DNA from: Candidatus Omnitrophota bacterium
GTDB taxonomy: Bacteria > Omnitrophota > Gorgyraeia > Zapsychrales > Fredricksoniimonadaceae
DNA length: 64,000 nucleotides
NCBI GenBank assembly: GCA_903860135.1
Contig: CAIOPG010000017.1
Span: 139,364-203,363, forward strand
Direction: 5' to 3'
Shown: one piece after another, positions 16,967 to 57,306 of the stretch
Position numbering within the stretch: position 1 is the stretch's first letter
Layout of the letters: each line of letters opens with the position of its first letter
Made by a program: the position numbers and the translations under genes
Notes under the pieces: generated by a model
Told to the model about the DNA's origin: nothing
What the model saw: only the letters and a program-made list of their open reading frames with translations
Databases searched by the model: none

Positions 16967-17049
16967 ACCAGAAGTCATACACCTTGGGAAGCGTCAAATC
17001 ACGGGCATGAGGAAATGATCATCGCGGATCCGATGACGCAGGTGTGATC
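16967..17049. repeat. ~83-nt intergenic repeat, copy B (paired with 12907-12989)
   Basis: See copy A. It begins at the stop codon of the 1030-aa modular protein and contains AAGGTGT-ATGACTTCTGGT (an SD plus ATG-ThrSerGly) on the minus strand. Confidence 0.7.
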
Positions 17050-20000
17050 GTCAAGAGGACTGGCTTGAAACCGGCAAACGAAGGCAAAAGGAAATCTTCA
17101 TTACCGACAACTTTTTCATCCGATGCCGCCTGGCTCCGGTCAACCGCCACCTCCATCCCGCTGGCATCAATACCACCGTATTTCTTCTGATCAGCAAGAC
17201 CCTTAGCATCTTTTTTCTGAAGCCTGTACACATGATATTCCCATGGCTGCAACGTCCATGTTCGTTCTTTGACCATATCCCTGAAAGACACTGGCGGCGC
17301 TTCGGGATGAAGAATATCGCTGAATTCCATCTGATCCTTTTCATCCTCGGTAAGATAATCCCACTGAAAATGCTGATTAATATAGGGAATTGTCTTCTCC
17401 GTACCGCTGTGATTCACGACAACAAGGCCAACCTCATAAGAACCGTCCTCATTCTGAATGCGGCGCTGATCAACCAAAACCCCTTCGGGAAGATCACGCT
17501 GATCACCAACCAAAGCCGGCCGCATTGTTCCGTTACACCATAATTTATCTGCCATCAAAGAAAATAAATTCTTATAAAATGATGTGAGTTCAGGGTATTC
17601 CAGCCACGTATCTTCTGCATCGGGTTGATTCAGTGCATCGGGCTTACCGTTGGTCTCGGCATGACGCCCCGTTTCAAACCCCTCATTGATCAGCGTGCCC
17701 CCGGAGAAATAGGCCATCAGCGCCGCATTGGCGGCCTTGGCACGTGCTATAAAACTTTTTAATACGCGCTCACTCAACAAAGCATTAATTTCATCTGGAT
17801 CATCACTAAAATCCTTGTGCAAGACAGCCTCAATCTCAGGGATGTCAGCATTAAGATAAAGATCTTGATCGTTTTCTCTTACATATCCCTGCTCGATCAA
17901 CGACCTCACAATAATGCCTCCCCTCAATGGCGCAGCCTCCGTAACAGCCTGCCAGCTGAAAGCCGTTGTTTCACGTATCTCATCAATGGTCCTTTTCCCA
18001 CGAATATCATCATGATTTTCGAGAAACTTTATAATACCCTGCATGTAAAAATCAGCCCCCTCAGACAACAACGAACCAAACATTCTGGAACTACGACGCA
18101 AAGATACAAAATGCTCCAAAGAAAGATGTTTGGCATAAACAAAATCAATCCCCAGCTTCAAAGCATATTCTTCATTCTCATACATTTCTGCAATAAAAAC
18201 AGAATCCGGATACTTTTTTTTCATTTCTCTAAAAAGATTCCTCCAAAAATCATCATTCATATCGCCATACTTTAATTCCCCCCAACTATTATTGAACCGG
18301 CCTGCCAAAGCCAGATGGAACATGTCAAAACGAATACCTCCACCGTTCGTCAACCGCATAATACGATCAATTAACGCCTCAATATATACCTGAGTTTCCG
18401 GCTTGGAAAAGTCAAAAGCCACCGTGTCCAGCCATGCCGCATAATAAGGATCCTTTTGATGCGCATAAATCCAGGATTTTCCATTTTTATCTTTATGCCA
18501 AAAGAAAAACCTGACAAATTCACTTTCCTGAAGATTCTTCCGAATCCCCCTGAAATAACTGCTCAAATTGGCGATCTCCGCTTCTGGTATTCTGCCTTCT
18601 TCAACCCGTATGAACAGCTCCGGATGTTCCTCCATCAATTTTCCCATGACACCGGCATGATTGGTCACAAGATCAACACACACTTTTATCCCATACTTGG
18701 CCGCACGTTCGACAAGCCTTTTAAAAGCCGCCTCGCCACCCAGGCTTGCCGCCACCGTATAATCATCGAGGCTATACGCGGAGGCCAGGCGCTGCTTTTG
18801 CCCAAAGATCTTAGCTGCCCATCCCTGATAATATCGGCTAAACTTGGATCGCTCCCATATGCCCATGGTCCACAACTCATTGATCCCCTTGTCTGCCAAC
18901 CCTTGAAGGTATTCATCCGTGATTTTGTCAAAACGCTTCGTAGGCCCGGCATGCCACAAATATATAACGGGGGCGTGCGTAAGCTTGACCGGCGCCACTT
19001 CCGCCGCCAGATCAACAACAGCCACGTCGGGAACTGCCGGCAATGGACCTGACACCACCGAAAAAACACCCGGTGTTAACATGCCAAAATCATTTACCCC
19101 GCCGGAAAAATACTTGCGCGGCAAAAGTTCGCCGGACACGGCATCCTTCTCTTCGCGGATGAGATTGACAGCACCTTTCTTATACGCGTCCACATACGTA
19201 TCATAAATCTTGCGCGGTTCCGCCTTGTCGGCGATAGCAACGCCCGCGAGCCTTGCCTTGTCCAGATAAGACCGGCGCCAGGGCGCGGCCCCTTTTTTCT
19301 GACGGTACCATTTGGCCAGGATCAGGGCCTGAAATATCTGCCGTAACCGGGCAAAGCGAGCGCCTTCATTAACCTCCCGCTCGATCACGGGCACAATGAC
19401 CTCGCGCATCACCTGAACAACAGCCTCCTGCCCCGCATTCAGGGCATGACTTCCCTCTGCCTGCGCGCGCGCCAGATAATCCTGTTCAAGCATGACCTTG
19501 AGGCGCGCCTCAACAACCACCCCGCTCAAGCCCTTCTCAACAACCCGCGCCCGCGCCGGAACGATCCACACCTTGTGAAAATCATCGGTCAATGCCCCCA
19601 CATTCACATCACGGTCTGAAACCGCGCGCAACCGTGCCCAAAACACACGGCCACTGGCGCTGTCAGGATGCAATAACGATGCCGTGAACTGTTTAAGGAT
19701 ATAATCCTGGGCCAGGAGATCGCGCCCCAGCTCGGTCATCCCCAGGGTTTTTGTCACGATGCGGTCGGATTCATACGGAGAAAGATTGACCCAGAATTCT
19801 TTTTCAGGAACGGCCAAGCCTGTCAGGAAATACCGCGCCTGCCGCGCAACATTTTCCCGCAAGTCAGCCTCCGGCGTTTGCCCCTTGTCGAGCATGAACA
19901 AAAGCTTGCGCGGCTGTTGCGGGTCGATCCGCAGTCCCTTGACCAGCGCCGGCGTATAGACACCCCCCGTCACAACCAGGGTGCCCGGCAACGGAAGATC

Positions 20001-20111
20001 TCTCAACGCCTGCGCCTCAGCCAAGATCGGTGTCAGTAAAAACACGACCGCCGTCAGTAAAGAACAAACGGCCTTGAAAGGAAATTTATGATGAAATAAA
20101 GGCACCATCAC
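17019..20111 (-). CDS. Secreted modular protein 1: conserved N-cap domain + GH13 alpha-amylase-family catalytic domain + conserved C-tail
   Basis: 1030 aa with a signal peptide (…LTPILAEAQA). The N-domain is shared with three paralogues (blocks WVNLSPYESDRI, GRDLLAQDYILKQFTASL, KVWIVP, LKVMLEQDY, PRKYFSGGV). GH13 conserved regions are present: DLVTNH, GIRFDMFH, IAEMYE, FLENHD. The C-tail is ...GGIDASG...AGFKPVLLTITP. Confidence 0.8.
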   Translation of the reverse strand: MMVPLFHHKFPFKAVCSLLTAVVFLLTPILAEAQALRDLPLPGTLVVTGGVYTPALVKGLRIDPQQPRKLLFMLDKGQTPEADLRENVARQARYFLTGLAVPEKEFWVNLSPYESDRIVTKTLGMTELGRDLLAQDYILKQFTASLLHPDSASGRVFWARLRAVSDRDVNVGALTDDFHKVWIVPARARVVEKGLSGVVVEARLKVMLEQDYLARAQAEGSHALNAGQEAVVQVMREVIVPVIEREVNEGARFARLRQIFQALILAKWYRQKKGAAPWRRSYLDKARLAGVAIADKAEPRKIYDTYVDAYKKGAVNLIREEKDAVSGELLPRKYFSGGVNDFGMLTPGVFSVVSGPLPAVPDVAVVDLAAEVAPVKLTHAPVIYLWHAGPTKRFDKITDEYLQGLADKGINELWTMGIWERSKFSRYYQGWAAKIFGQKQRLASAYSLDDYTVAASLGGEAAFKRLVERAAKYGIKVCVDLVTNHAGVMGKLMEEHPELFIRVEEGRIPEAEIANLSSYFRGIRKNLQESEFVRFFFWHKDKNGKSWIYAHQKDPYYAAWLDTVAFDFSKPETQVYIEALIDRIMRLTNGGGIRFDMFHLALAGRFNNSWGELKYGDMNDDFWRNLFREMKKKYPDSVFIAEMYENEEYALKLGIDFVYAKHLSLEHFVSLRRSSRMFGSLLSEGADFYMQGIIKFLENHDDIRGKRTIDEIRETTAFSWQAVTEAAPLRGGIIVRSLIEQGYVRENDQDLYLNADIPEIEAVLHKDFSDDPDEINALLSERVLKSFIARAKAANAALMAYFSGGTLINEGFETGRHAETNGKPDALNQPDAEDTWLEYPELTSFYKNLFSLMADKLWCNGTMRPALVGDQRDLPEGVLVDQRRIQNEDGSYEVGLVVVNHSGTEKTIPYINQHFQWDYLTEDEKDQMEFSDILHPEAPPVSFRDMVKERTWTLQPWEYHVYRLQKKDAKGLADQKKYGGIDASGMEVAVDRSQAASDEKVVGNEDFLLPSFAGFKPVLLTITPASSDPR

Positions 20112-20150
20112 GCGCTCCGTTTACATCGTAGAAATATCCATCCCCGTCAA

Positions 20151-23100
20151 TTATCGCACCAGCGCCGCCACGGACACCGGCACGATCTTCCCGATGCGCG
20201 GCTCAAAACCGCTCACGTCCAACTGCGCCCAAGGCTTGGCCGATACCGGTAACGGCACACCGTGGCTATCACGGCGGATCCTGAAATCCATGGTCGCTGT
20301 ATCAAGGGTGACACCACCGGGCGATGCCGCGGCGTCGGCCGACGTGCCCTCCAACGTATCGCCAGCAAACTTTCCAGTCTTTGGGGCGATCTCGTCAGCA
20401 AACGCCTCGCTGATGGTCGCCACCAGATCCGCCAGCTGGCCCTTGTTGATCAGCGGTAACGTGCCGTTCAATAATCCCGCCACAAGCTCAGGACGGGACA
20501 TATGGCTTTGATACTCAGCAAAAAGCCTGTCCCACAAAGGCCGGTATCTTTCTGTATAATAAACCCTGAAATCCCATAACCCGGTCTTCTTGAGCCTGGA
20601 CACGGTATCTGCATCCAGCTCACTTTCCAATAAATTGAAATTTACCAACGCGCCGAGAAAAGGCATGATCTTCTTTTCTCTCATGTCTTCATCAAGAACA
20701 ACCCGCGTGTAATCGATCTGCGTAGCGTGAAAAATCTTATCCAAACGGCTGGCAAGAGTATCCTGTGTTACAGGCGCCGCAGCCGATGCTTCCGGTATCA
20801 ATTGCCCAACGGCAGCGATCAGGCTTTGTGCCTGCTGAGGGACGGCAAGATAGCCTCCGTCACGTGCCGCATCACTCCTCGATAGAAAGATATAATCCTT
20901 GCCGTCGCTGTGTCGGTAAAGCACCGACAACATCCCCTGGCGCAGGTCAGCCTTGCGCACCCGGCCTTCACCAACCATGGTCGTCAGCAGACGGGCCATT
21001 TTCTGTTCCTGGGGACTGCCCTGGGCCAAAACAGCCAGCGCCAATTGTGCAGCCGGCGACGCCCTGCGCACCGGCTCACGCCGCTCGATCCAGTTGTCCG
21101 GAGCACGATGAGAATCCTTGATCCATTGCTTCAGACGCGACACAACACCCGCAAGATAATCCCTTGTCTGCTGGTAAGACCAATTCGTGCTCAACGAAGT
21201 ACCCGGCACATTATGCTGACTCTTGATGCCCACATCCCCGGATTCACCGTCAACGACATCCGCATAGTTAACCACCGTGGTATTGGCCATGGTGTTCATC
21301 AAGACCTTGTTCATGATCTCCGCGATATTGTCCTCTGTCAACTCCTCCGTAACCCCCAGCTCGCGTAAAATCTGAGCCAGCACCTTTTTACTGTTAGTCG
21401 AAAGGTTGCTGTCCCAAAGCCTTGTCGACGGATTGTCGTGGGGGGCAAGAAAAGCCATTTGGCTGGGCAACAAATTAGCCGGATGGTACGGATCACCGTT
21501 GAGCCGGTTTCTCCAGGAAGGATCCAGCGACATATACTGCAACACACTCATGCCTGGCAAAGGCAACTTGCGGAAGAACGCATCCGTCCGGGGTGTGCCT
21601 TCGCCGAGATTCTCGGCTATAAACACATCGGTCAGATCGACCTCGGGGAAAAGCTTCGCCAATTTGTCAAAGATGAGATACGGATCCAGGCCATCGTGAA
21701 TATCTCTCAAAAAATATCCCTGATCGGACGGCTTGTCCCTGGGGATAACAAAAGGATCCGCATACCCAAAGACATAATCCAGCCGAAACCGCGCCCCGGG
21801 CGACAAACGGAGGGCGTAAACGAACCTTTTAACATAAAAGTTGATCCCTTCTGCCTTGCTCAAATCCGGCGGTACATGGCCAAAGATGTCATTGCGTACG
21901 CCGGTACGCAGCGAGAACGTCCTATTTTCTGTATCATAAATGAAAACATCCGGATTCCCCCAGCAATCCGCGCTGTTAAACCGCGGATATATATTCAAAT
22001 CTTCGATAATCGGGACATGATGCTCTTGCGCAAAAGTATTCAGAGCCTCCGCCTGCTGACGTACAAGGAACTGAAAGAAATGGAAGAACCCAATTTTCTG
22101 TTGGTTCGCTATTTCAAAATCTTTCACACCAGAGGCATTAATATTAGATAGCTCATCCGGCCAGCGCGTCAAGGCCTGCTCAAATACAAGCTTGATCTTT
22201 GTCCAATTTTCATCTCCCAGGATGTTCTGCAATGCACCAAGCTTATCCCAAGATACTTTCAGCTGAACTTCGTTCAACTTGAGGGAATCAGCCATATTCA
22301 GATAGATCAGTTTTTCTGAAATATATTTCCAAATATCAGTAACACCCTCAACCTCGAGTCCGGCATGCTCAACCGAATACTGGTCAACAAGCCCCAGCCA
22401 GCCGTATTGGCTATACGTCTGGCTCAATACCTGAAACAAAGAATACGATCGCAACCAGTCCATACGTATGTCAACGCCGTCAACCGAGATAAGGCCTTCG
22501 GTATTTTCTTTGACGAATGTGTCAAACGCCTGCTGAAAAAGCGCCACCGGCCGACCGTTCGTCGGCCATACCCCGGTATTTTGCGCCTCCAGAAAATTTG
22601 CATACGCCTGACGGGCCAGTTGTTCCTTGTATCCCAGCCGATCAAAAGCAATCCGCAAAGAATGAATATCTTTAGGAACAATGACATCGTGTTGTTCCTG
22701 GGTTATAAACCCTTGCGCGACCAAGTCTTGCGGGCTAAGCAAGTTTCCGTTGAGCCCAAAGAGCCCATTACCATAATATGGATCGCCGTTATTATTCGTC
22801 CCCAGCAACGGTTCGCGTAGCCAGCCGGCACCTGCTTTTTCCAACCCCAGAATGAGGGCTCTCGCCTCCGGCCCAAGATCGCCCCCTCCGTACTCTCGCT
22901 GATCCGTCGATGCTACTGAGGGCAATGACGCAACCGGAACAAAAATCACCGTTCCGGGTACCTGCGCCTTAACGGCCGCCGCCGTCGCCTCGTTCGTCAT
23001 CGCCTTCGCCCCCGGCATCATCCTCGCCACCGATGCCGAAGGTTTTCTTTTTTCGGAGTTATCCGTCTGCGGCGCCTCCGCAAAATCCACCGCCACCGAT

Positions 23101-24254
23101 GCGCTCGCATCAGACCGTTGCGCAACACGCCCCGCAAAATCCTTTTTCTCCTTCTCCGTCGCCGGAGTCACAGCATTTACCGGCACCACTCCGCCCGACA
23201 CGTATTTCCGGGGCACCGACGCGCGACCCTGCGGATCGACCTCGTCTTTGATGTAGTTATAAACCCCGGCCTTGAAAGATGCCAGATACCGGTCATACAG
23301 CTTCTGGCGGATGGCGGGATCATCGACTTTGATCCCGGCGGCCTTGTTGCGGTCGACGTAGATCTTGCCGAGCACGCTGTCGCGCAGGGTTTTCTTGTAC
23401 CATACCGCGAGAATCATGGAATTGTAGATCTGGCGCAGGGTGGCAAAATTCTTGCCACTATTCACTTCCTTCTCGATGGCGGGGATCAGGATTTCGCGCA
23501 TGACCTGCTTGGCGAGCTCATCTTCCGGACGGGGCACAGACCCGTCCCTACCCACGCCGGCAACCTGCGCCGATTTATAATCTGATTCGAGCATGACTTT
23601 CAGGTGCTGTTCGACCACAAAGACCCTGTTGCCCTTCTCGTAGACAACCGCCTTGTCGGGCATGATCCAGACCTTGTTGAAGGTATCCAGCGGCAGGTCA
23701 GTCACCCCGGACTGTTCCTTCGCCTGGCTGTAAACCCTCTGCCAGAACGCCTTGCCCAGGTCATCTTCAGGATAGAATAATGATGCCGACAACTGCTTGA
23801 GGATATAGTCCTGCGCCAGCATATCGCGGCCCATGTCCGTCTGGCCAAGGCCTTCGCCGGTGATGCGATCCTTTTCATACGGCGACAGGTTCACCCACTG
23901 CTCTTTCTCGGGAACAGTTAAAGATGCCATGAAATATTTGACTAATTTCTCGGATTCCTGACGAAACGCATCACTGTCAAACGCAAGGCCGGAATCACCC
24001 TTATCAATGATAAAACTGAACTGAAGTGGCTTCTCAGGATGAACTTCCATGCCGATGGCCAAAGGAGGCACGTACGCCGGGGAAGGATGCACCATGACAC
24101 CCACCGGCGGCAAGCGTAAAGCCGCCAAGCCATCCGCCTGCGCCCAGGCCCTGTTGACAGGCATAAGGGTGTTGACCAGAAAGACAGCGGCTACAAAAGC
24201 CGCCACAGCACAACGCAGCCTAGAATGACGGACACAACAAAGCATCGAGGGCAT
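20151..24254 (-). CDS. Secreted modular protein 2: conserved N-cap domain + GH77 4-alpha-glucanotransferase (amylomaltase-like) domain + conserved C-tail
   Basis: 1367 aa with a signal peptide (…VNRAWAQA) and the same N-domain blocks (WVNLSPYEKDRI, GRDMLAQDYILKQLSASL, KVWIMP, LKVMLESDY, PRKYVSGGV). GH77 signatures are FFHFFQFLVRQQAEALNTFAQEHHVPIIEDL, RLDYVFGY, GMSVLQYMSLD, APHDNPSTRLW. The C-tail is ...GGVTLD...SGFEPRIGKIVPVSVAALV. Confidence 0.8.
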   Translation of the reverse strand: MPSMLCCVRHSRLRCAVAAFVAAVFLVNTLMPVNRAWAQADGLAALRLPPVGVMVHPSPAYVPPLAIGMEVHPEKPLQFSFIIDKGDSGLAFDSDAFRQESEKLVKYFMASLTVPEKEQWVNLSPYEKDRITGEGLGQTDMGRDMLAQDYILKQLSASLFYPEDDLGKAFWQRVYSQAKEQSGVTDLPLDTFNKVWIMPDKAVVYEKGNRVFVVEQHLKVMLESDYKSAQVAGVGRDGSVPRPEDELAKQVMREILIPAIEKEVNSGKNFATLRQIYNSMILAVWYKKTLRDSVLGKIYVDRNKAAGIKVDDPAIRQKLYDRYLASFKAGVYNYIKDEVDPQGRASVPRKYVSGGVVPVNAVTPATEKEKKDFAGRVAQRSDASASVAVDFAEAPQTDNSEKRKPSASVARMMPGAKAMTNEATAAAVKAQVPGTVIFVPVASLPSVASTDQREYGGGDLGPEARALILGLEKAGAGWLREPLLGTNNNGDPYYGNGLFGLNGNLLSPQDLVAQGFITQEQHDVIVPKDIHSLRIAFDRLGYKEQLARQAYANFLEAQNTGVWPTNGRPVALFQQAFDTFVKENTEGLISVDGVDIRMDWLRSYSLFQVLSQTYSQYGWLGLVDQYSVEHAGLEVEGVTDIWKYISEKLIYLNMADSLKLNEVQLKVSWDKLGALQNILGDENWTKIKLVFEQALTRWPDELSNINASGVKDFEIANQQKIGFFHFFQFLVRQQAEALNTFAQEHHVPIIEDLNIYPRFNSADCWGNPDVFIYDTENRTFSLRTGVRNDIFGHVPPDLSKAEGINFYVKRFVYALRLSPGARFRLDYVFGYADPFVIPRDKPSDQGYFLRDIHDGLDPYLIFDKLAKLFPEVDLTDVFIAENLGEGTPRTDAFFRKLPLPGMSVLQYMSLDPSWRNRLNGDPYHPANLLPSQMAFLAPHDNPSTRLWDSNLSTNSKKVLAQILRELGVTEELTEDNIAEIMNKVLMNTMANTTVVNYADVVDGESGDVGIKSQHNVPGTSLSTNWSYQQTRDYLAGVVSRLKQWIKDSHRAPDNWIERREPVRRASPAAQLALAVLAQGSPQEQKMARLLTTMVGEGRVRKADLRQGMLSVLYRHSDGKDYIFLSRSDAARDGGYLAVPQQAQSLIAAVGQLIPEASAAAPVTQDTLASRLDKIFHATQIDYTRVVLDEDMREKKIMPFLGALVNFNLLESELDADTVSRLKKTGLWDFRVYYTERYRPLWDRLFAEYQSHMSRPELVAGLLNGTLPLINKGQLADLVATISEAFADEIAPKTGKFAGDTLEGTSADAAASPGGVTLDTATMDFRIRRDSHGVPLPVSAKPWAQLDVSGFEPRIGKIVPVSVAALVR

Positions 24255-26395: not shown

Positions 26396-26535
26396 TGCTG
26401 ACAGCTTTTACTTTGCGTCTTCATCTGCCTCTCCCGTATAGCTCTGGCATGAGTTTAAAAAAAAGCCCATCCTGTAAAAGGACGGGCTTTGGAAACTTAT
26501 CGATCAACAAGCCTGCAATCAGATAAACCGCTTAA

Positions 26536-26708
26536 TTAGCGGCTGCTGCCCTTGCGCTTGGAGAAACAATCCTTACAATAAACCGGACGATCCCCTGTCG
26601 GCTTGAAAGGAACTTCGCTCTCTTTGCCGCAATCAGCACACGTTGCTTTGTGCATTTCGCGAGGACGACCATCATATTTACCAGCACCACCACCATATTG
26701 AAAACCCA
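26536..26708 (-). CDS. Small CxxC-x17-CxxC zinc-ribbon protein, apparently frameshifted right after the start codon
   Basis: SD GGAGGT then ATG at 26706-26708, but the zinc-ribbon frame (YGGGAGKYDGRPREMHKATCADCGKESEVPFKPTGDRPVYCKDCFSKRKGSSR*) is -1 relative to that ATG across a TTT/AAA homopolymer. Below the ORF-track length cutoff. Confidence 0.45.
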
Positions 26709-26822
26709 TAATACCTCCGATGATTTAATTTTTAACTTAGAAACATCATACTTCTTTAATCAAAATATGACAAGCGATATAAAATAATAAAAAATTCATG
26801 CCGATAAAAGGCAGGAGCCTGT

Positions 26823-50140: not shown

Positions 50141-51513
50141 ACCACCTTTCCTGGGTCAACTGCGTTTATATCATCAGCTGTATCCTGTTCGCGTTCGGTT
50201 TAAAACTCCTCGGCTCTCCTGAAACCGCGCGCCGCGGCAACTGGATGTCGGCCCTGGGCATGCTGCTCGCCGTGATCGCGACACTCACCGCGCGCGAGAT
50301 CATTTCTTTCCAGTGGATATTGATCGGCGGGGTGATCGGCGCTTCGTTGGGAACGCTCGTGGCCTTGCGCGCCAGCATGACCCAAATGCCTGAAATGGTG
50401 GCCCTCCTGCACGGCTTTGGCGCGCTCGCCAGTGTATTTGTCGACTGGAGCGCGTATCACAACCATACGCCGGACAATGCGGTGGTCATCACGGCGATCT
50501 ACCTGTCGATCCTCATCGGCGGGGTGACTTTTACCGGCAGTCTGGTTGCCTGGGGCAAACTCAGCGAACGCTTGCCCGGAAAGCCGCTCCTTTTTCCCGG
50601 CCAGCAGATGATCAGCATCCTTACAGCCGCGGCCATTGCACTTCTGGCGATCCCTTTTTTCCTGACTCCTGCGGCTTACCCGGTATTCCTGTGGATCCTG
50701 GGGTTGTCACTCATCCTGGGTGTTCTCTTGGTGATTCCCATCGGCGGGGCGGATATGCCGGTGGTGATCTCGGTCCTTAACAGCTATTCCGGGCTTGTGG
50801 CCTGCACCACGGGCTTTGTCATCAACAATGTCCTGTTGATCGTCGTTGGCGCACTCGTCGGGGCCAACGGGATCATCCTCAGTTACATCATGTGCAAGGC
50901 CATGAACCGCTCGCTCAACAATGTGCTTTTCGGCGCCTTTGCCCCGCGTGTCAAGAAAGCCGCCGGCACGGCCAAGGGCGAGGTCAAACCCATCAGTCCC
51001 CAGGATGCTTTCCTTATCCTTGAATCCGCGCGTTCGGTCGTTATTGCCCCTGGTTATGGCATGGCGGTTGCCCAGGCGCAACACGCCGTGCGTGAACTCG
51101 GAGAGCTCCTGGAAAAGAATGGTGCTGATGTGAAATACGCCATTCATCCGGTCGCCGGGCGCATGCCCGGCCACATGAACGTCCTTTTGGCCGAGGCCAA
51201 TGTCCCTTATGATCAGCTCGTTGAAATGGAACACATCAATCCGCTGATGGACAATGTTGATGTCGCCATCGTGATCGGCGCCAATGACACCGTCAACCCG
51301 GCGGCCATCCACGACAAGACATCCCCCATCTACGGCATGCCCATCATTGAAACGTTCCGGGCCAAGACCGTCTTTGTGATCAAACGCTCGATGGCCTCAG
51401 GCTTTGCGGGCATCGAGAATGAATTATTCCTCTATGACAACACCCGCATGATCTTTGGCGACGCCAAAGATGTGGCGCAGAAACTTGTGGCGGAGTTCAA
51501 GGCGGGGAACTGA
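50137..51513 (+). CDS. pntB: NAD(P) transhydrogenase beta subunit
   Basis: 458 aa, a membrane domain plus a C-terminal NADP(H)-binding dIII; 4-nt overlap with pntAB. Confidence 0.9.
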   Translation: MNHLSWVNCVYIISCILFAFGLKLLGSPETARRGNWMSALGMLLAVIATLTAREIISFQWILIGGVIGASLGTLVALRASMTQMPEMVALLHGFGALASVFVDWSAYHNHTPDNAVVITAIYLSILIGGVTFTGSLVAWGKLSERLPGKPLLFPGQQMISILTAAAIALLAIPFFLTPAAYPVFLWILGLSLILGVLLVIPIGGADMPVVISVLNSYSGLVACTTGFVINNVLLIVVGALVGANGIILSYIMCKAMNRSLNNVLFGAFAPRVKKAAGTAKGEVKPISPQDAFLILESARSVVIAPGYGMAVAQAQHAVRELGELLEKNGADVKYAIHPVAGRMPGHMNVLLAEANVPYDQLVEMEHINPLMDNVDVAIVIGANDTVNPAAIHDKTSPIYGMPIIETFRAKTVFVIKRSMASGFAGIENELFLYDNTRMIFGDAKDVAQKLVAEFKAGN

Positions 51514-54500
51514 CCGGCAGGGCCGCAGCAACTCCATTTTGCCCGATCAGCGCGGCAAGATTGGTCACCGGCTGCATATCCATGATCACAGGATCCAGGC
51601 CGGGAATAGACCCGTCAGGCAGCGGACCGCGATAGGCCGGAAATCGGATACGGACATCATCCCCGCCGGTGCGCAACGCGGTATTACGCGGATTAAGGTC
51701 AATACCGCCTTTATCAGGTGACTGTAGCGAACTTTCATTCGAAACCGACCGGGCAGAATAATCCTTTTCTGTCCCCTGGATCAAACCAAGTTCACGTCCC
51801 AGTTCAATGATATGCTCCGCCATATAGATCTTCCGAAGATAATGCCGCTGTGTCGCTGAATGTTCCGGAGAAATCCACACGCTTAGATCATCATAGCCAT
51901 CTTCATCCATCCCAACAAAACCCTGACTCACATAATGCTTACCTAAGGCATAAGCCATATGTGTTATGCCGCCTTCAACCGTTCCAACAATATCGGCCGC
52001 TTCCATTAAATAAAGTATGCCTCGTTCATGCGGCTGTGGCACAGGCGATACCATGACAAAACTCAAGTATTGCTCAGGAATAAAATGTAAGATAGATTTT
52101 TCATCTTCAGAACGGTTAAATCCCAACCACCCTATACGATTCATATTAGGCATAAGAATGACAAAGAATCCCGAATCAATCAACTGTTGAACTTGCTTAG
52201 CACCGTAACGATACCCGTATTCCGACAAACCTTTTGTTTCTAACTCTCCACCAAACAGATTCAAAAATACAACTGGTCTTCGTTCGATATTCTTATCGGT
52301 CAATGTGGCCAAGAGGCTTCTTTTGTAATGAGCCTCAGAACCTGAAACTGTCGTCATATAATGACCATCTACCACCCGGTTGTTACCGGCCCCGTATGAA
52401 ATACCAAGCCGATCCAAAAGATCAAACGCAGGCGCATATTGATTACCACTATTAATTGGGTCCAACACATCATTCCTCACATGGATAACATCGTACTCTT
52501 TGTGTCCATAGGCGTAGGGAGAATGGATATAAATAGCGGGGGGTTGTCTCTTGAGAACATCCTGGAACGCCTGTTCCGCCTTCTGTGAAAGAATTTTTCC
52601 ATCAGCATCATAACGGTGAATAATCATGTCAGATTTCTCAGCGTCAAACAAAGGAGGAAATGTTAGCTGTATTCGCGGATGATTATATATCTCCGTCCGC
52701 TTCGTATAAATGTATATCTCGAGTTCCGGGTTATATTCCAACAGCGCTTGAACGAGTGATCCATTGCGTATGATCTCATCTCCTATACCTTCATCCAAAT
52801 TATGGACAAACAGTACCTTTTTCTTGCCGATCTTAAGAATTGCCTCAACTTTCTTATGAACATCCACCTTCTCTTTTTCACCGACATCCGGTTCTTTGGC
52901 ATCAATCAAAGGGATAAGTTTTTCAAGGTTTTGTCGAAAATCATCTAAAGATATATCCTTATATATGTTATTTCTGATCAGCAAATCCCAAAACCTGTCA
53001 ACCCGTCCATGAACACGTGAACTCATCTCAGCAAAGATCTTCAACTGCTCAAGCGATAGTGACGCCCCATGAAACCCAATCAATCCTCCTAACTGATAAT
53101 AGATAAAGCTATGCGGCGAATGATCCAAATTAAGCAGGATCGTCTTGATTACAGGCCAATATTCAAAGAAACTATCGCCGTAATGCTCCTTTAACCGATT
53201 AAAACCACTGTTCATTAAAAACCCCATTTTGGTCGCATTCGACTCCTTAAAAAGAAGCTTAAAAATGTCTCCTATCTCATCAATAAACATGTCACCAAAA
53301 TCTTTCTTAACTTCAAGTAAGAGCTTATAATATCTGCCAGGACTCTTGCTCGCCGACAGAATCCCAAATTCTTTCAAATCATCCCAATATCGCGGCAATT
53401 GATCACCAAACACATCAACGGCAATCTCCCATATTCCCCAAAAGTCGCGACCCGGATCACTTTCGGCCGCCATGGCCCAATACATAGCTTCCAATTCATC
53501 CAAGATGCGGCGCACGTCTTCACGGGAATGAATTAAATACGGTTTTAATGTTTTTAATGAAGCTAATGCCCACCCAGCACCATTATTACGTTCGCGGGCG
53601 AACCCTATCGAGCTTTGAATCAGCTTGAGCCCCAATTCAGGGAAATACTCAAGGTATTCCTCATGGGAATAACCATCAAACGGCATCCCGCCATTGGTCG
53701 TAAAGAATGGCTCTCCCCATTGGAGTACGGTAGCAACAGTATCAACCACCTCATAACCGTAACGATTTAAAATATCTTCTATCAACTGTTTTTTATCATC
53801 CGGTAGTTCTTTATATAACGCTTGGGCATAAAATTCATTCTTAAAAGCGGTCTCAGTTCTGTTATTAACACCCCGTTTAGCCCGTAACGCCAATATTATT
53901 TCCTCTGCCGTCATAGATACCGGAACGCCTCCCAAGCCATCGATAAAGCGGTACTTTTTCATGGCAGAATCATTTTTCTTCTTTCCATCTTTCCTGAGCG
54001 ATCCTGACTTCTTACCCGCGATAACGGATGCCTGAACCGCAATCTTGGTAGCTCTTGCCGCCTTCGCCGCGACATCCCCCGGCGTTTGTGATTCATCGAT
54101 CCGCCCATACTTCTCCACCACACCACCGGAAAAATATTTGCGCGGGATCACGGTTTGGGAGACATCATCGTAATCTTCTTTGATAAAGTTATAAACGCCC
54201 CGTTTAAACGCCTCCAGGTACTGTTGATAAATCTTCTGGTTGATCTGCTTATCCTGGGTATCAACTCCTGCGGTCCTGTTGTGATCGATGTAAATATCCT
54301 GCAGGACACTACCAGCCACATGGCGCTTGTACCAGGTGGCGAGGATCACGGCGTTGGATATCTGGCGCAGACGCGCAAACGACTTGCCGGTATTGACCTC
54401 CCGCTCGATCTCGGGAATGATAACCTCACGGATAATTTCTTTGGCGATATCGCTCAGCGGCGTCAGATCCTCCGCGCGTGTCTCCCCCAGCCCGTGCCGG

Positions 54501-55213
54501 GTGTGGCCCTGATTGGCCGCCAACGCCAGATAATCATTTTCCAGCATCACCTTATGGTGACTCCCGGTCACAAAGACCGATGTCCCGCTGACATAGACCG
54601 ACGCCCTGTCCGGGATGATCCAGACCTTGTGAAAAGTATCCATCGGGATCTCGTTGGTCCCGTAACGCTGCCGCGTTTTATCCCTCACCCGTTTCCAGAA
54701 CGCACGCCCCAAATCTTTCTCGGGATACATCAGGCTGGCTGTCAATTGCTTGAGAAGATAATCCTGCGCCAAAAGGTCCCGCCCTATTTCGGTTGCGCCA
54801 AACCCCGGCGGAATGATGCGGTCTTTTTCGTAAGGGCTGAGATTAACCCACATCTCATCTTCGGGCACCGTCATGGCCGCAAAGAAATATTTGATCAGGT
54901 GGTTGGATTCATCCCGAAGACTTTCTTCTTTGAGATTATCATCCCCTGGATGCACCATGAAATCAAACCGGAACGGATCTTCAGGATACACGGTCATCCC
55001 GATCATCAGGGCAGGATCATAGGCAGGGGTTAAACCAACCATCGCGCCAGGCGGCGGTAAGCCAAGGAGCGTTCCACCCGCCGGCCCAACCTGTTGCGCC
55101 TGCGCCTGGGATAAACCCAATGGAAGAACCGACTGACCGACAAAGGCGATCAAAACCGCCAAAAGCAGTGTTTTCTTAAGGAAGAAATATTTTTTAAAAT
55201 GAAAATGATGCAT
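51497..55213 (-). CDS. Secreted modular protein 3: conserved N-cap domain + ~500-aa unassigned helical region + GT9-like glycosyltransferase domain + conserved C-tail
   Basis: 1238 aa with a signal peptide (…LSQAQAQQ) and the N-domain blocks (WVNLSPYEKDRI, GRDLLAQDYLLKQLTASL, KVWIIP, KVMLENDY, PRKYFSGGV). The GT9-like features are ...KVLFVHNLDEGIGDEII... and ...MEAADIVGTVEGGITHMAYALGKHYV.... The C-tail is ...GGIDLNP...DPVIMDMQPVTNLAALIGQ. Confidence 0.8.
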   Translation of the reverse strand: MHHFHFKKYFFLKKTLLLAVLIAFVGQSVLPLGLSQAQAQQVGPAGGTLLGLPPPGAMVGLTPAYDPALMIGMTVYPEDPFRFDFMVHPGDDNLKEESLRDESNHLIKYFFAAMTVPEDEMWVNLSPYEKDRIIPPGFGATEIGRDLLAQDYLLKQLTASLMYPEKDLGRAFWKRVRDKTRQRYGTNEIPMDTFHKVWIIPDRASVYVSGTSVFVTGSHHKVMLENDYLALAANQGHTRHGLGETRAEDLTPLSDIAKEIIREVIIPEIEREVNTGKSFARLRQISNAVILATWYKRHVAGSVLQDIYIDHNRTAGVDTQDKQINQKIYQQYLEAFKRGVYNFIKEDYDDVSQTVIPRKYFSGGVVEKYGRIDESQTPGDVAAKAARATKIAVQASVIAGKKSGSLRKDGKKKNDSAMKKYRFIDGLGGVPVSMTAEEIILALRAKRGVNNRTETAFKNEFYAQALYKELPDDKKQLIEDILNRYGYEVVDTVATVLQWGEPFFTTNGGMPFDGYSHEEYLEYFPELGLKLIQSSIGFARERNNGAGWALASLKTLKPYLIHSREDVRRILDELEAMYWAMAAESDPGRDFWGIWEIAVDVFGDQLPRYWDDLKEFGILSASKSPGRYYKLLLEVKKDFGDMFIDEIGDIFKLLFKESNATKMGFLMNSGFNRLKEHYGDSFFEYWPVIKTILLNLDHSPHSFIYYQLGGLIGFHGASLSLEQLKIFAEMSSRVHGRVDRFWDLLIRNNIYKDISLDDFRQNLEKLIPLIDAKEPDVGEKEKVDVHKKVEAILKIGKKKVLFVHNLDEGIGDEIIRNGSLVQALLEYNPELEIYIYTKRTEIYNHPRIQLTFPPLFDAEKSDMIIHRYDADGKILSQKAEQAFQDVLKRQPPAIYIHSPYAYGHKEYDVIHVRNDVLDPINSGNQYAPAFDLLDRLGISYGAGNNRVVDGHYMTTVSGSEAHYKRSLLATLTDKNIERRPVVFLNLFGGELETKGLSEYGYRYGAKQVQQLIDSGFFVILMPNMNRIGWLGFNRSEDEKSILHFIPEQYLSFVMVSPVPQPHERGILYLMEAADIVGTVEGGITHMAYALGKHYVSQGFVGMDEDGYDDLSVWISPEHSATQRHYLRKIYMAEHIIELGRELGLIQGTEKDYSARSVSNESSLQSPDKGGIDLNPRNTALRTGGDDVRIRFPAYRGPLPDGSIPGLDPVIMDMQPVTNLAALIGQNGVAAALPVSSPP

Positions 55214-55215
55214 CG

Positions 55216-57306
55216 CTAACCGCCTCGTGCCGTAACAGGTGCGATGCCCAGAAAGTTGGGCAGATCATTCATGGGCTGAATGTCGATGATAACCGGCGCC
55301 ACCCCGGCTGAGCCCCGATATTTCTCCAGCATCGCCGGGTCAAAATGAAAGAATGTCCCTGCATCAGAAGCATCCACCTGCATGACCTGAGCGACAGGGT
55401 TCAAATCAATACCGCCTGAATCATTTGACGACTTGTCCGCCATCTTCCGATTAATCTTATCCAGTTCACCTGGGACCTTGTTCTTTAAATCTTCAGGTCC
55501 ATCAACCAATACTGTCTGCATACCAACCTTCTGGGCAGGTACTGTATCTTTTTGACTTGCTCCGATCGACACAAAAGCTTCAGCTGGGAAAGGAACTTTC
55601 GCTTGAATCTTCCGATAAAAATCAAGGGCAGGCTTCCCAACCCCCATATTCTCCTGGGTAAATATAAAATCAAAAATCTCCTCAAGCCCAAGCGCCTTTA
55701 AGACACGCGCCACATGAGCGTCGCTGGCATTAGACCCAAGCACAAGATAATACGACTGTTTCAATCCTTTCAATAAAGCAATCATGTCTTGTTCCGGTTT
55801 CAACAAACCTTCCACGTCAATCTCATCCACCTTGGCGTTAAACGCAGAACTGTTCAGGTTGAATGCCCGGACAACCCCGCTTAAAGATTGATTATTATTC
55901 TCATCAAAATAGGCGTTCTTCACTTCTTTTGCTGAATATTCAGCGGCCTTGGAAAGCTTGAGCAAAATCCGATATTTCCGACCCCACACCTTGCTTGAAT
56001 GATAAAGAGTATCCCCCAGATCAAAGATCAGCACTTTTACAGGCATCTTGCTGCGAGGTTCCAGGCTTGAATTGTCTTTAATAGAAGATGGTTTTTTCTC
56101 TTTAGGAATATTATTTACCCTGACACTCATCAAGACTTGCTTGCGCACAGGAAGCCCTGCCGCATCAAACGCATTGACCATACTCATATCACCAGGATAA
56201 ATATTAACACCCCCCGCAAAATACTTCCGGGGGATCGTTGCCTCGGTGGCGGGGTCGTATTCTTCGCGGATAAGGTTATACGCGCCTTTCTTGAATGACG
56301 CGACGTAGCGTGACCATATCTTTGCGGACTCTTTCGGGTCATCGATATTGACACCGGCGACTTTATTCTGGCCGACGTAGAAGCCGAGCGGGGATTGGTG
56401 GATCGCGCCCATGACTTTCTTTTTGTACCAGGCGGCCAGGATCAGGGAGTTGTAGACCTGCCGGAGCTGGGCGAAGTTTTGGCCTTCGTTGACTTCTTTT
56501 TCAAGGACAGGGAGGATGATGGTGCGGATGAGGGCTTGGGCAAGGTCTTCCCCCCGTCCATCCCCTTCCCACGAGGGGGAGGGTGACGTTGGAGACGCTG
56601 TATTATTCTTCGCGGCCAGATAATCGGATTCGAGCATGACCTTCAGGCGGGATTCGACCACGTAGGCGACGGCTTCTTCGGGGCGATGGTTGCCGGCAGG
56701 CTTGGGTTTTTCGTAAACCTTAGCCACAGCTGGAACGATCCAGACTTTATTGAACGTATCAATGGGGATATCGGTTGTCCCGAACTTCGCCTGGGCCTGT
56801 TTGTAGATCTCATCCCAGAACTTCTTGCCCAGGCTATCCTCAGGGTACATCAAACTGGCGGTGATCTGTTTCAACAGATAATCCTGCGCCAGAAGGTCGC
56901 GCCCCATTTCGGTCTGGCCAAAAGCTTCGGGCACAATGCGGTCTTTTTCATACGGGCTGAGATTCACCCAGAGGTCCTTTTCAGGCACCGTGAGCGCGGC
57001 GAGGAAATATTTTATCAGGCGAAGGGCATCATCCCCCGTCCCTTCCCCTTTATCCAGAATAAAATCAAACCGAAAAGGATCCCCCGCATAAACCTTGACG
57101 CCGGTAAGGGTGGTCGGATGAAAAACAGGGCTCAACCCCACCCTGGCTCCCGGCACCGGCAATCCCAACACCTCTTGTGCCGACACCTGCCCCAACGGAA
57201 ATGCCATGACATTCAACAAAAATGCCACCAGCATGACCCAGGGAACAATCCGCTGTCTCAGTGTTTTATTACGCTTTAAAGCCACATGATCTTCCCGATG
57301 GTTCAA
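55216..57306 (-). CDS. Secreted modular protein 4: conserved N-cap domain + HAD-superfamily phosphatase domain + conserved C-tail
   Basis: 696 aa with a signal peptide (…GQVSAQE) and the N-domain blocks (WVNLSPYEKDRI, GRDLLAQDYLLKQITASL, KVWIVP, LKVMLESDY, PRKYFAGGV). HAD motif I is FDLGDTL, with later GKP/D motifs. The C-tail is ...GGIDLNP...APVIIDIQPMNDLPNFLGI. Confidence 0.8.
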   Translation of the reverse strand: MNHREDHVALKRNKTLRQRIVPWVMLVAFLLNVMAFPLGQVSAQEVLGLPVPGARVGLSPVFHPTTLTGVKVYAGDPFRFDFILDKGEGTGDDALRLIKYFLAALTVPEKDLWVNLSPYEKDRIVPEAFGQTEMGRDLLAQDYLLKQITASLMYPEDSLGKKFWDEIYKQAQAKFGTTDIPIDTFNKVWIVPAVAKVYEKPKPAGNHRPEEAVAYVVESRLKVMLESDYLAAKNNTASPTSPSPSWEGDGRGEDLAQALIRTIILPVLEKEVNEGQNFAQLRQVYNSLILAAWYKKKVMGAIHQSPLGFYVGQNKVAGVNIDDPKESAKIWSRYVASFKKGAYNLIREEYDPATEATIPRKYFAGGVNIYPGDMSMVNAFDAAGLPVRKQVLMSVRVNNIPKEKKPSSIKDNSSLEPRSKMPVKVLIFDLGDTLYHSSKVWGRKYRILLKLSKAAEYSAKEVKNAYFDENNNQSLSGVVRAFNLNSSAFNAKVDEIDVEGLLKPEQDMIALLKGLKQSYYLVLGSNASDAHVARVLKALGLEEIFDFIFTQENMGVGKPALDFYRKIQAKVPFPAEAFVSIGASQKDTVPAQKVGMQTVLVDGPEDLKNKVPGELDKINRKMADKSSNDSGGIDLNPVAQVMQVDASDAGTFFHFDPAMLEKYRGSAGVAPVIIDIQPMNDLPNFLGIAPVTARGG

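What the first reader, a model, noticed from the sequence alone, without database searches (positions are those of the whole stretch)
17019..24254. Sharp within-gene compositional mosaicism: AT-rich enzyme cores flanked by GC-rich caps
In all four capped genes the N-cap and C-tail coding regions have the local genomic composition, roughly 55-65% GC (for example 19501-19560 and 51520-51640). The cargo cores are conspicuously AT-rich, down to about 27-40% GC over hundreds of bases. Examples are 18181-18240 at 16/60 G+C, the 17800-18500 GH13 core, the 21400-22900 GH77 core, 52000-53900 and 55500-56100. This pattern suggests the cargo modules were acquired from AT-richer donors and grafted between resident cap modules. 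It is consistent with modular domain shuffling, not with four anciently divergent paralogues.
Basis: seen in the sequence. Interest (0 to 1): 0.6.

Follow-up and report, generated by a model that had tools for sequence, protein, structure and literature searches.

The report
AT-shifted enzyme cores between conserved handles
Four exported enzymes of an Omnitrophota bacterium really do have AT-rich middles between normal-composition ends, but the pattern occurs across the whole protein family and persists in distant orthologues, so it looks like a standing evolutionary bias in fast-evolving cores and not a scar of recent gene grafting.

Summary
The mosaic is real. In all four "capped" genes, third-codon-position GC (GC3) is 0.64-0.70 in the N-terminal cap and 0.41-0.58 in the enzyme core (p = 1e-4 to 2e-11). 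No other ORF in the window varies as much internally.

The explanation "cores grafted from AT-richer donors" is not supported.
- The genes belong to a large Omnitrophota-specific family: signal peptide, ~320-aa cap, variable cargo, ~60-aa GGIDLN tail.
- Across 79 family members with usable flanks, cap GC3 equals that of neighbouring genes. Cargo GC3 tracks the host genome but sits 0.09 lower.
- Orthologues of g1 and g2 with saturated synonymous sites show the same, positionally correlated dip.
- The nearest homologues of the GH13 and GH77 cores are capped Omnitrophota proteins.
- The AT-rich cores are inherited with their syntenic housekeeping flanks.

Modularity is real. Cargo types are extremely diverse, and one relative carries the g3 core and tail behind a different N-terminal module, with the breakpoint exactly at the linker.

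Best reading (inferred): constrained handles keep genome-typical GC3, while faster-evolving cargo sits nearer the AT-biased neutral composition.

The parts
17019..20111 (-). g1: capped GH13 protein, 1030 aa from the GTG. The database protein P0121 starts at the ATG one codon in, at 20108.
   Evidence: ORF. Pfam Alpha-amylase hit at aa 431-709. The identical protein is found on 5 independent contigs.
19095..20009 (-). g1 cap (aa 35-339). GC3 is 0.666, typical of the genome. It is preceded by a signal-peptide-like N-terminus at 20010-20111.
   Evidence: The signal peptide is judged by eye only (hydrophobic core followed by AEAQA).
17196..18986 (-). g1 cargo (aa 376-972), the GH13 core. GC is 0.45 and GC3 is 0.466, with the minimum at 18000-18300 (GC 0.35). 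The catalytic motifs DLVTNH, GGIRFDMFH, FIAEMYE and FLENHDD are intact.
17022..17195 (-). g1 C-terminal tail (YGGIDA...GFKPVLLTITP), GC 0.53.
20151..24254 (-). g2: capped GH77 protein, 1367 aa.
   Evidence: ORF. Pfam Glyco_hydro_77 hit at aa 693-1030, 150.7 bits.
23187..24137 (-). g2 cap (aa 40-356), GC3 0.703. The signal-peptide-like segment is at 24138-24254. The linker at 22968-23186 lies in a window of GC about 0.61.
20340..22967 (-). g2 cargo (aa 430-1305), made of a GH77 module and a conserved C-terminal domain (aa 1050-1305). GC3 is 0.580. The AT-rich parts are about 21800-22700 and 20500-20800. A GC-rich island lies at 20800-21100.
20154..20339 (-). g2 C-terminal tail (PGGVTLD...GFEPRIGKIVPVS), GC 0.65.
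   Evidence: The tail of P0264 is homologous.
51497..55213 (-). g3: capped protein with a cargo that has no Pfam or NCBIfam match, 1238 aa. Cap at 54119-55096 (GC3 0.638). Linker at 54008-54118. Cargo at 51722-54007 (GC 0.42, GC3 0.413). Tail at 51500-51721 (GC 0.60).
   Evidence: The breakpoint with L087 is at aa 403, which is nucleotide 54007.
55216..57306 (-). g4: capped HAD-family hydrolase, 696 aa. Cap at 56206-57177 (GC3 0.664). Linker at 56047-56205. Cargo at 55414-56046 (GC3 0.455). Tail at 55219-55413.

Best explanation
The four genes belong to a large, Omnitrophota-specific family of apparently exported proteins. Each has a signal peptide, a strongly conserved ~320-aa N-terminal cap, a variable enzymatic cargo and a conserved ~60-aa GGIDLN tail.

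The compositional mosaic is a standing (equilibrium) property of this architecture, not a relic of foreign origin. Cap and tail are under strong purifying selection and keep the synonymous-site GC typical of the genome's other genes. The cargo evolves about twice as fast at the protein level, and its synonymous sites sit well below that level, close to the GC of non-coding DNA.

Shown:
- The dip is family-wide and scales with host GC.
- It is regional rather than site-specific.
- It recurs at corresponding positions in orthologues whose synonymous sites are saturated.
- It is independent of whether a cap is present.
- The cores are inherited vertically with their flanks.

Inferred: the cause. 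Bacterial mutation is AT-biased (established knowledge), and some force holds GC3 of ordinary genes above the neutral level. That force is either GC-biased gene conversion and recombination, which need sequence similarity, or selection on synonymous sites made efficient by recombination. It would act on the conserved handles but only weakly on the rapidly diverging cargo.
For: Family-wide pattern:
- In 79 capped genes from the Omnitrophota loci, cap GC3 minus flank GC3 is +0.005. Cargo minus flank is -0.089, negative in 89% of genes (p = 3e-12).
- In the 58 complete genes with at least three flank genes, tail minus cargo is +0.107.
- Cargo GC3 regresses on host GC3 with slope 0.74 and r = 0.73, so cargos are adapted to their host with a constant AT offset. 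The shift is toward AT in genomes with flank GC3 from 0.36 to 0.66.
- Control: 54 non-capped long ORFs from the same loci show no N-terminal effect (+0.008). Capped versus control gives p = 7e-12.

Deep orthologues:
- g1 and P0122 are colinear, with pS 0.75 (saturated). The GC3 profiles correlate at r = 0.57 (p = 0.011). The P0122 core has GC3 0.43-0.55 against flanks of mostly 0.65-0.75.
- g2 versus P0265 and P0264 gives r = 0.50 and 0.56 (p = 0.009 and 0.004).
- GC3 correlates with amino-acid identity along the alignments, r = 0.35-0.57.
- Within each region, GC3 is the same at conserved and non-conserved residues: 0.63 vs 0.65 in the g1 cap and 0.45 vs 0.43 in the g1 cargo.

Rate of evolution:
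- dN/dS is 0.19-0.26 in caps and 0.37-0.54 in cargos.
- dS of the AT-rich g1 core is 0.02-0.10, against about 0.04 in adjacent rbfA and nrnA.
- dS of the g3 core is 0.65, against 0.93-1.18 in pntB and pntA.

Other support:
- The cap-less L087 orthologue has an equally AT-rich core and an AT-rich alternative N-terminal module.
- ORF-free DNA is 0.38 GC in the window and 0.36 on average in the loci. Cargo GC3 averages 0.40 and flank GC3 0.48.
- High-dS recombination tracts between close relatives fall mainly in the g2 cap (cap dS 0.32 versus cargo 0.11) and in the tail end of g1.
Against: - The causal step (biased gene conversion or weaker selection) is not demonstrated. No outgroup was available to polarise substitutions.
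- The recombination-tract evidence rests on two genes and is mixed. In g1, cap and cargo dS are equal, and g2 cargo has patches of dS 0.2.
- ORF-free DNA is AT-enriched by the way it was selected, so it is a rough neutral proxy.
- The size of the effect in g1, g3 and g4 (odds ratio about 2.5) is large. These genes sit at the 86th-96th percentile of the family.
- GH77 module distances are incongruent with cap and C-terminal-domain distances. This could mean replacement by a distant homologue and not acceleration.
- The catalytic motifs of GH13 and GH77 are intact, so the cargos are not simply decaying.
Confidence: 0.55

Rival explanations
1. One reading: the enzyme cores were acquired horizontally from AT-richer donors and grafted between resident cap and tail modules. 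The low GC is the donor's signature that has not yet been erased.
For: - The cores have atypical composition at all three codon positions in g1, g3 and g4.
- Cargo types are extremely diverse, so fusions must have happened many times.
- A module swap exactly at the g3 linker exists between relatives.
- GH77 distances are incongruent with cap distances.
- The g3 core is an orphan, and orphan genes are often AT-rich.
Against: - The nearest homologues of the GH13 and GH77 cores are capped Omnitrophota orthologues. No closer free-standing or foreign homologue appeared in the searches of 5.8 and 1.84 billion proteins.
- The same dip is present in orthologues with saturated synonymous sites.
- Cargo GC3 tracks host GC3 with a constant offset in 57 loci, including AT-rich hosts.
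- The cores are syntenic and have dS no higher than their flanks.
- In the one swap observed, the N-terminal module differs, not the core.
- The flanks are housekeeping genes (rbfA, nrnA, truB, ribF, pntAB), not mobility genes.
- The g3 core has no phage or plasmid match.
Confidence: 0.1
2. Recurrent positive (diversifying) selection on the cargo, for example in a host or prey interaction, interferes with weak selection on linked synonymous sites (Hill-Robertson effect). Codon bias then collapses locally while the handles keep it.
For: - dN/dS is higher in cargo, and dN is equal to or above dS in several 100-codon windows of the g1 core.
- The GH77 module is strongly accelerated relative to the cap and the C-terminal domain.
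- The effect is regional, not site-level.
Against: - Substitution counts per window are small.
- Whole-region dN/dS values are below 1, which fits relaxed constraint equally well.
- No test of positive selection could be run.
- The mechanism overlaps the best explanation and cannot be separated from it here.
Confidence: 0.15
3. Direct functional selection for AT-rich or rare codons in the cargo. The purpose could be to slow translation for co-translational export or folding, or to lower mRNA structure.
For: - The pattern is conserved across orthologues and across the family.
- All members start with a signal-peptide-like segment.
Against: - The shift is toward AT even in AT-rich genomes, where AT-ending codons are the common ones. 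It therefore does not track codon rarity.
- The cap-less L087 orthologue begins MEATGTAAEDK with no obvious hydrophobic signal segment (judged by eye), yet its core is equally AT-rich.
- The C-terminal tail returns to normal GC3, so there is no simple 5'-to-3' gradient.
Confidence: 0.08
4. Artefact: chimeric metagenome assembly at repeated cap sequences, or chance fluctuation.
For: The window comes from a metagenome scaffold. Caps are repeated within genomes.
Against: - The identical g1 protein is on 5 contigs, and its 92.5%-identical relative is on 18 contigs from independent samples with the same synteny.
- The in-window caps share at most 16 nt of exact sequence, too little to mislead an assembler.
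- p values are 1e-4 to 2e-11.
Confidence: 0.02

Closest known systems
[quoted passage not shown]
   Same: One ORF is built from a conserved module of one composition and a variable, AT-richer module. The family has many paralogues with interchangeable variable parts. A junction serves as an exchange point.
   Different: - Here the conserved module has the host's own composition, whereas the Rhs core is anomalously GC-rich.
- The variable part is internal, bracketed by a second conserved module (the tail).
- The cargos are metabolic-type enzymes (GH13, GH77, HAD), not toxins, and no immunity gene or orphan cassette was seen in the window.
- There are no YD repeats.
- The AT shift persists in deep orthologues.
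Core versus accessory GC3 contrast, and AT-rich orphan or recently acquired genes in bacterial genomes (general knowledge: Daubin & Ochman 2004; Bohlin et al. 2017; the biased-gene-conversion proposal of Lassalle et al. 2015)
   Same: Conserved sequence has higher GC3 than poorly conserved, fast-evolving sequence in the same genome. The shift is always toward AT. Poorly conserved small ORFs in the window also have lower GC3, 0.47-0.56.
   Different: Here the boundary runs inside single genes. It is reproduced in 91% of the capped genes examined and is stable across saturated orthologues. Expression level and gene age are therefore held constant.
Omnitrophota long and giant surface proteins (West-Roberts et al. 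2023, 10.1101/2023.11.21.568195; 2026 preprint 10.64898/2026.06.07.730766)
   Same: Same phylum. Signal-peptide or membrane-anchored proteins that carry otherwise cytoplasmic-type enzyme domains. Several cap-bearing ORFs in the fetched loci run over 3300 aa off the locus end. The first paper notes N-terminal regions that mostly lack identifiable domains.
   Different: Term searches of those two papers turned up no mention of this cap, the GGIDLN tail or intragenic composition. The four genes here are of ordinary size (696-1367 aa).

Membership tests
Recently horizontally acquired segment (compositional island inside a gene) | Composition and codon usage atypical for the host | tested here: met
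   Cargo GC3 is 0.16-0.21 below expectation in g1, g3 and g4, and 0.056 below in g2.
Recently horizontally acquired segment (compositional island inside a gene) | Closest homologues lie in a different lineage (the donor) rather than in orthologues of relatives | tested here: not met
   The closest core homologues are capped Omnitrophota proteins: P0122 for g1, and P0264, P0265 and P0266 for g2. Free-standing GH13 and GH77 enzymes are only 24-31% identical. The g3 core has no homologue outside close relatives.
Recently horizontally acquired segment (compositional island inside a gene) | Absent from, or much more divergent than the flanks in, close relatives | tested here: not met
   The genes are syntenic in L083-L085 and in L086/L087. 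Core dS is 0.02-0.10 against about 0.04 in flanks for g1, and 0.65 against 0.93-1.18 for g3.
Recently horizontally acquired segment (compositional island inside a gene) | Compositional anomaly decays with time (amelioration) | tested here: not met
   The dip is retained and positionally correlated in orthologues with pS of about 0.75. The offset is constant across hosts.
Rhs / polymorphic-toxin architecture | Conserved trafficking or core module plus a variable AT-richer module in one ORF | tested here: met
Rhs / polymorphic-toxin architecture | The variable module is a C-terminal toxin followed by a cognate immunity gene; YD, PAAR or similar repeats are present | tested here: not met
   The cargos are GH13, GH77, HAD and one unknown. 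They are internal and followed by a conserved tail. Pfam finds no toxin or YD domains. The downstream genes are rbfA and pntB.
Omnitrophota cap/tail protein family (uncurated) | N-terminal hydrophobic signal-like segment followed by a ~320-aa domain with WVNLSPYE, GRDLLAQDY(I/L)LKQ, KVMLE.DY and PRKY(F/V)(S/A)GG motifs | tested here: met
   All four genes have these features. They share 40-51% pairwise identity and reach up to 58% (g2 cap) or 64% (g3) identity to database members. There are 68 invariant columns in 12 sequences.
Omnitrophota cap/tail protein family (uncurated) | C-terminal ~60-aa tail: GGI(D/N)L..., then G(F/L).P(V/I)I..I.P | tested here: met
   The tail is clear in g3 and g4 and degenerate but recognisable in g1 and g2. 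It is also present in P0264 and in L087.
Omnitrophota cap/tail protein family (uncurated) | Restricted to the phylum Omnitrophota | tested here: met
   The named hits and all 80 genome loci are Omnitrophota MAGs. Some are mislabelled "uncultured Planctomycetales" and one Heimdallarchaeota.
GH13 (alpha-amylase family), g1 cargo | Pfam PF00128 above the gathering score, and conserved regions I-IV with the Asp/Glu/Asp residues | tested here: met
   42 bits against a cut-off of 22. The motifs DLVTNH, GGIRFDMFH, FIAEMYE and FLENHDD can be read.
GH77 (4-alpha-glucanotransferase), g2 cargo | Pfam PF02446 above the gathering score, and the catalytic Asp/Glu/Asp motifs | tested here: met
   150.7 bits against a cut-off of 25. 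The motifs RLDYVFG, IAENLGEG and APHDNPS can be read. The NCBIfam equivalog cut-offs are not reached.

The most novel reading that the evidence does not exclude
Cap and tail are the conserved handles of a phylum-specific export or display system that Omnitrophota use to place hundreds of otherwise cytoplasmic enzyme types outside the cytoplasm. The handles also act as recombination anchors.

On this reading, the persistent GC3 contrast between handle and cargo is a within-gene footprint of GC-biased gene conversion, or of recombination-dependent selection. It would be confined to the segments that stay similar enough to recombine. Cargo modules would be exchanged at the linkers, as seen between g3 and L087. 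These genes would then be a natural experiment, controlled for expression and gene age, on what sets bacterial GC content.
Probability: 0.2. Interest if true: 0.65.

Novelty: new variant of a known kind. Interest (0 to 1): 0.4.

Why it matters
Atypical composition is routinely read as evidence of horizontal transfer. Here a strong intragenic anomaly looks like a graft but behaves as a stable, family-wide property, so it is a cautionary case.

Cap, cargo and tail share one transcript, one genomic position and, in the deep orthologues, one history. Their contrast therefore isolates a regional force on synonymous sites, free of the usual confounders of expression level and gene age. This bears on the open question of what keeps bacterial GC above the mutational equilibrium.

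The analysis also brings out an uncurated Omnitrophota-specific protein family of at least 3900 database members. Its cap has no match in the one fold library that could be searched (PDB), and the family brackets very diverse enzymes. This is relevant to how these ultra-small, possibly host-dependent bacteria deploy enzymes.

Tried and rejected
Explanations tested and rejected:
- Amino-acid composition does not explain the low GC. The expected GC3 from composition is 0.60-0.62 in all cargos.
- Low-complexity linkers do not explain it. The windows spanning the linkers are not AT-rich, and the catalytic domains are AT-rich.
- There is no generic N-terminal effect. Non-capped long ORFs show +0.008.
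- Site-level selection for translational accuracy is not the cause. GC3 is equal at conserved and non-conserved residues within each region.
- Recent duplication or gene conversion among the in-window caps is excluded. pS is about 0.7 and the longest shared exact stretch is 16 nt.
- The cargo is not hypermutated. Core dS is no higher than flank dS.
- Strand-asymmetric deamination is not the pattern. At four-fold sites both C-to-T and G-to-A shifts occur.

Searches that led nowhere:
- An all-against-all comparison of cargos from the 80 loci gave too few orthologue pairs for a systematic test.
- None of the 80 loci carries a cargo homologous to ours.
- Foldseek against the PDB gave no meaningful match for the cap model, which has pLDDT 67.
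- Rfam and tRNA scans of the window found nothing.
- Phage and plasmid searches with the g3 core found nothing.
- Literature searches found no description of the cap/tail family or of the compositional pattern.
- The 5' end of the L086 contig disagrees with L087 over its first 33 nt. It was treated as unreliable.

Full report
**What is there.** The finding's range holds two adjacent minus-strand genes. g1 (17019-20111, 1030 aa) has a Pfam Alpha-amylase/GH13 hit at aa 431-709. g2 (20151-24254, 1367 aa) has a Glyco_hydro_77 hit at aa 693-1030. Two more genes of the same build lie at 51497-55213 (g3, no Pfam or NCBIfam hit) and 55216-57306 (g4, HAD hydrolase).

All four start with a signal-peptide-like hydrophobic segment ending in A/S-x-A-Q, judged by eye. 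They share a ~320-aa N-terminal cap at 40-51% pairwise identity. They end in a ~60-aa tail of the form GGI(D)L...G(F/L)xP(V)I..I.P. Neither cap nor tail is in Pfam-A or NCBIfam. An AlphaFold model of the cap (pLDDT 67, pTM 0.69) has no meaningful PDB fold match.

The neighbours are ordinary housekeeping genes: rbfA, nrnA-like DHH, truB, ribF, serS, H+-PPase, NhaB and pntAB.

- GC3 drops from 0.64-0.70 in the caps to 0.41-0.47 in the cargos of g1, g3 and g4, and to 0.58 in g2 (chi-square p = 1.4e-4 to 1.7e-11).
- The tails return to GC 0.53-0.65.
- The within-gene GC range in 100-codon windows is 0.18-0.27 in these four genes and at most 0.16 in 49 other ORFs, including ones of 819 and 660 aa.
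- 55% of all 300-nt windows below 45% GC fall in the cargos, which make up 11% of the window.
- With the per-amino-acid codon usage of 41 neighbouring genes as reference, cargo GC3 is 0.16-0.21 below expectation (0.056 in g2), while caps fit within +/-0.06. The effect is therefore one of codon choice, not only of amino-acid content.
- It covers the catalytic domains, and the windows spanning the linkers are not AT-rich.

The quoted core ranges are 41-49% GC, not 27-40%, and the GH77 core is 49%. In g1 the drop begins about 125 codons inside the cargo and not at the cap boundary.

**What the genes belong to.** The cap finds at least 733 proteins when used alone and at least 3921 when g3 is used whole. 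Those that carry a name are nearly all Candidatus Omnitrophota. Cargo Pfam domains include DnaJ, HEAT, methyltransferases, radical SAM, glucose-6-phosphate isomerase, phosphoglycerate kinase, GGDEF, glycosyltransferases, Macro and others. A genome scan gave 589 confirmed cap loci, of which 80 were fetched. All 80 are Omnitrophota MAGs, often with 2-3 capped genes in tandem.

**Family-wide test.** I measured 79 capped genes with usable flanks, excluding the window.
- Cap GC3 minus flank-gene GC3 is +0.005.
- Cargo minus flank is -0.089, negative in 89% of genes (p = 3e-12).
- Cap minus cargo is +0.094, positive in 91% of genes.
- In the 58 complete genes with at least three flank genes, tail minus cargo is +0.107.
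- Cargo GC3 follows host GC3 with slope 0.74 (r = 0.73), much like caps (0.70) and tails (0.78). The shift is toward AT in hosts with flank GC3 from 0.36 to 0.66.
- 54 non-capped long ORFs from the same loci show no N-terminal effect (+0.008; capped versus control p = 7e-12).

The window's g1, g3 and g4 are strong examples, at the 86th-96th percentile of a general rule.

**Closest homologues of the cores alone.**
- *GH13.* Apart from the gene itself, the only good hit is P0122, an Omnitrophota protein that is colinear over its whole length: 47% identical overall, with a much better conserved cap and a core at 39%. Other GH13 proteins are 24-30% identical.
- *GH77.* The best hits are P0264, P0265 and P0266, at 37-45% identity and 1717-2084 aa. 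All carry the cap, and P0264 also carries a tail like that of g2. Ordinary ~500-aa MalQ proteins are 27-31% identical.
- *g3 core.* It has no homologue except close relatives, and none in phages or plasmids.

No AT-rich donor is in sight.

**Persistence.** Synonymous sites between g1 and P0122 are saturated (pS 0.75). Yet P0122, in a genome whose flank GC3 is mostly 0.65-0.75, shows cap GC3 of 0.61-0.78 and core GC3 of 0.43-0.55. The two GC3 profiles correlate at r = 0.57, p = 0.011. The same holds for g2 against P0265 (r = 0.50, p = 0.009) and P0264 (r = 0.56, p = 0.004), whose hosts have flank GC3 of about 0.53 and 0.70.

A donor signature acquired before these splits should have been erased at synonymous sites, so the dip must be actively maintained. 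GC3 correlates with amino-acid identity along the alignments (r = 0.35-0.57). Within cap or cargo, however, it is equal at conserved and non-conserved residues. The force is therefore regional, not site-specific.

**Close relatives.**
- L083-L085 carry g2-g1-rbfA-nrnA-truB-ribF in the same order. dS is about 0.04 in rbfA and nrnA and 0.02-0.10 in the AT-rich g1 core.
- Patches of high dS mark recombination imports: g2 aa 1-150 and 251-400 (up to 1.06) and g1 aa 880-1000 (0.75). These lie mostly in cap or tail-proximal sequence.
- dN/dS is 0.19-0.26 in caps and 0.37-0.54 in cargos.
- For g3, the relative in L086/L087 (pntB 94% identical, dS 0.93) has the core and tail at dS 0.65 and the same low GC3.
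- In L087 the 1298-aa ORF has no cap. Nucleotide homology to g3 (81%) begins exactly at g3 aa 403, in the linker. Upstream lies a different, equally AT-rich module, part of which is 41% identical to a stretch of a giant capped ORF in L015.

Module exchange at the linker is therefore real. What differs in that case is the N-terminal module, and the core's AT-richness does not depend on the cap.

**The caps are old paralogues.** Among the four in-window caps, nucleotide identity is 52-60%, pS is 0.67-0.74, and the longest shared exact stretch is 16 nt. The high cap identity between g2 and P0265 (81-82% amino acid) comes with pS of 0.5-0.78, so it reflects strong purifying selection and not recent conversion. 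Cap and the g2 C-terminal domain give congruent distances (Spearman 0.89). The GH77 module is accelerated in g2 and P0265: 36% identical to each other, while P0264 and P0266 share 58%.

**Mechanism (inferred).** ORF-free DNA has GC 0.38 in the window and 0.36 on average in the loci. Cargo GC3 averages 0.40, against 0.48 for flank genes and 0.51 for caps. The caveat is that ORF-free DNA is AT-biased by the way it is selected. The shift affects both C-to-T and G-to-A at four-fold sites.

I take this as cargo synonymous sites lying near the AT-biased neutral composition. Whatever raises GC3 in ordinary genes, and in the handles, acts only weakly on the fast-diverging cargo. That force could be GC-biased gene conversion or recombination, which requires sequence similarity, or recombination-assisted selection on synonymous sites.

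Rare-codon pacing is unlikely because the shift is toward AT even in AT-rich hosts. Interference from diversifying selection cannot be separated from the main model with these data.

**Comparison with known systems.** The nearest textbook analogue is the Rhs gene of E. coli, with a GC-rich conserved core and a variable AT-rich extension (PMC7259588). Here, though, the conserved part has host composition, the variable part is internal, and the cargos are not toxins. The pattern is better seen as the known core-versus-accessory GC3 contrast operating inside single genes. Term searches of the two papers on Omnitrophota long proteins turned up no mention of the cap, the tail or this composition effect.

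**Verdict.** The modular-family idea is right. The AT-donor graft explanation is not supported. The pattern is a stable, family-wide, constraint-linked synonymous-site bias. Interest is moderate.

Noticed in passing
It has no Pfam or NCBIfam model and no PDB fold match, and at least 3921 database proteins. It brackets dozens of normally cytoplasmic enzyme families behind a signal-peptide-like N-terminus.
   Followed up: partly
L087 124-4020 (relative of g3); breakpoint at window 54007: This is a cap-less orthologue of the g3 cargo and tail. Nucleotide homology of 81% starts exactly at g3 aa 403, in the linker. Upstream is a different ~465-aa AT-rich module with no Pfam hit, partly 41% identical to a stretch of a giant capped ORF in L015. 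The contig ends 123 nt upstream, so the ancestral state is unknown.
   Followed up: partly
window 20151-24254 and 17019-20111 versus L083 5855-13096: Synonymous divergence between close relatives is very patchy, from dS 0 up to 1.06. This indicates recombination imports inside the g2 cap (aa 1-150 and 251-400) and near the g1 tail (aa 880-1000).
   Followed up: partly
window about 23052-23201 (g2 aa 352-401) versus L088: The g2 linker shows unusually low synonymous divergence from the distant orthologue P0265 (pS 0.27, against mostly 0.55-0.9 on both sides), despite only 72% amino-acid identity. This is unexplained.
   Followed up: no
window 21108-22967 (g2 GH77 module, aa 430-1049): GH77 distances are incongruent with cap and C-terminal-domain distances. 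g2 is 36-37% identical to P0264, P0265 and P0266, while P0264 and P0266 share 58%. Cap and C-terminal domain agree with each other (Spearman 0.89). This means either strong acceleration or replacement by a distant homologue within the same protein group.
   Followed up: partly
window 12200-12850, 26450-27000, 37000-37350: These AT-rich stretches (GC 0.36-0.40) lie mostly between the larger ORFs. The first holds a short fragment that resembles a DUF559 or Vsr-like endonuclease domain, IEVDGGQ...RDAWLRKQGFEVLR (resemblance recalled from memory, not tested).
   Followed up: no
window 13644-13684: A (GA)21 dinucleotide repeat lies inside ORF 13014-13706. That ORF has a weak Lcl_C hit below the Pfam cut-off, and its GC2 is higher than its GC1.
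   Followed up: no
window 54155-55033 (+): A 292-aa antisense ORF lies entirely within the g3 cap. It is most likely a by-product of GC3-rich coding sequence, not a gene.
   Followed up: no
L011 8704-9684: A GH77-like sequence, 23% identical to the g2 core and not inside a capped ORF, sits just upstream of a capped gene in another Omnitrophota genome.
   Followed up: no
L004, L006, L015, L021, L024, L037, L042, L074: In these loci the cap heads ORFs that run more than 3300 aa off the end of the fetched locus. The cap therefore also starts some of the very long Omnitrophota proteins.
   Followed up: no
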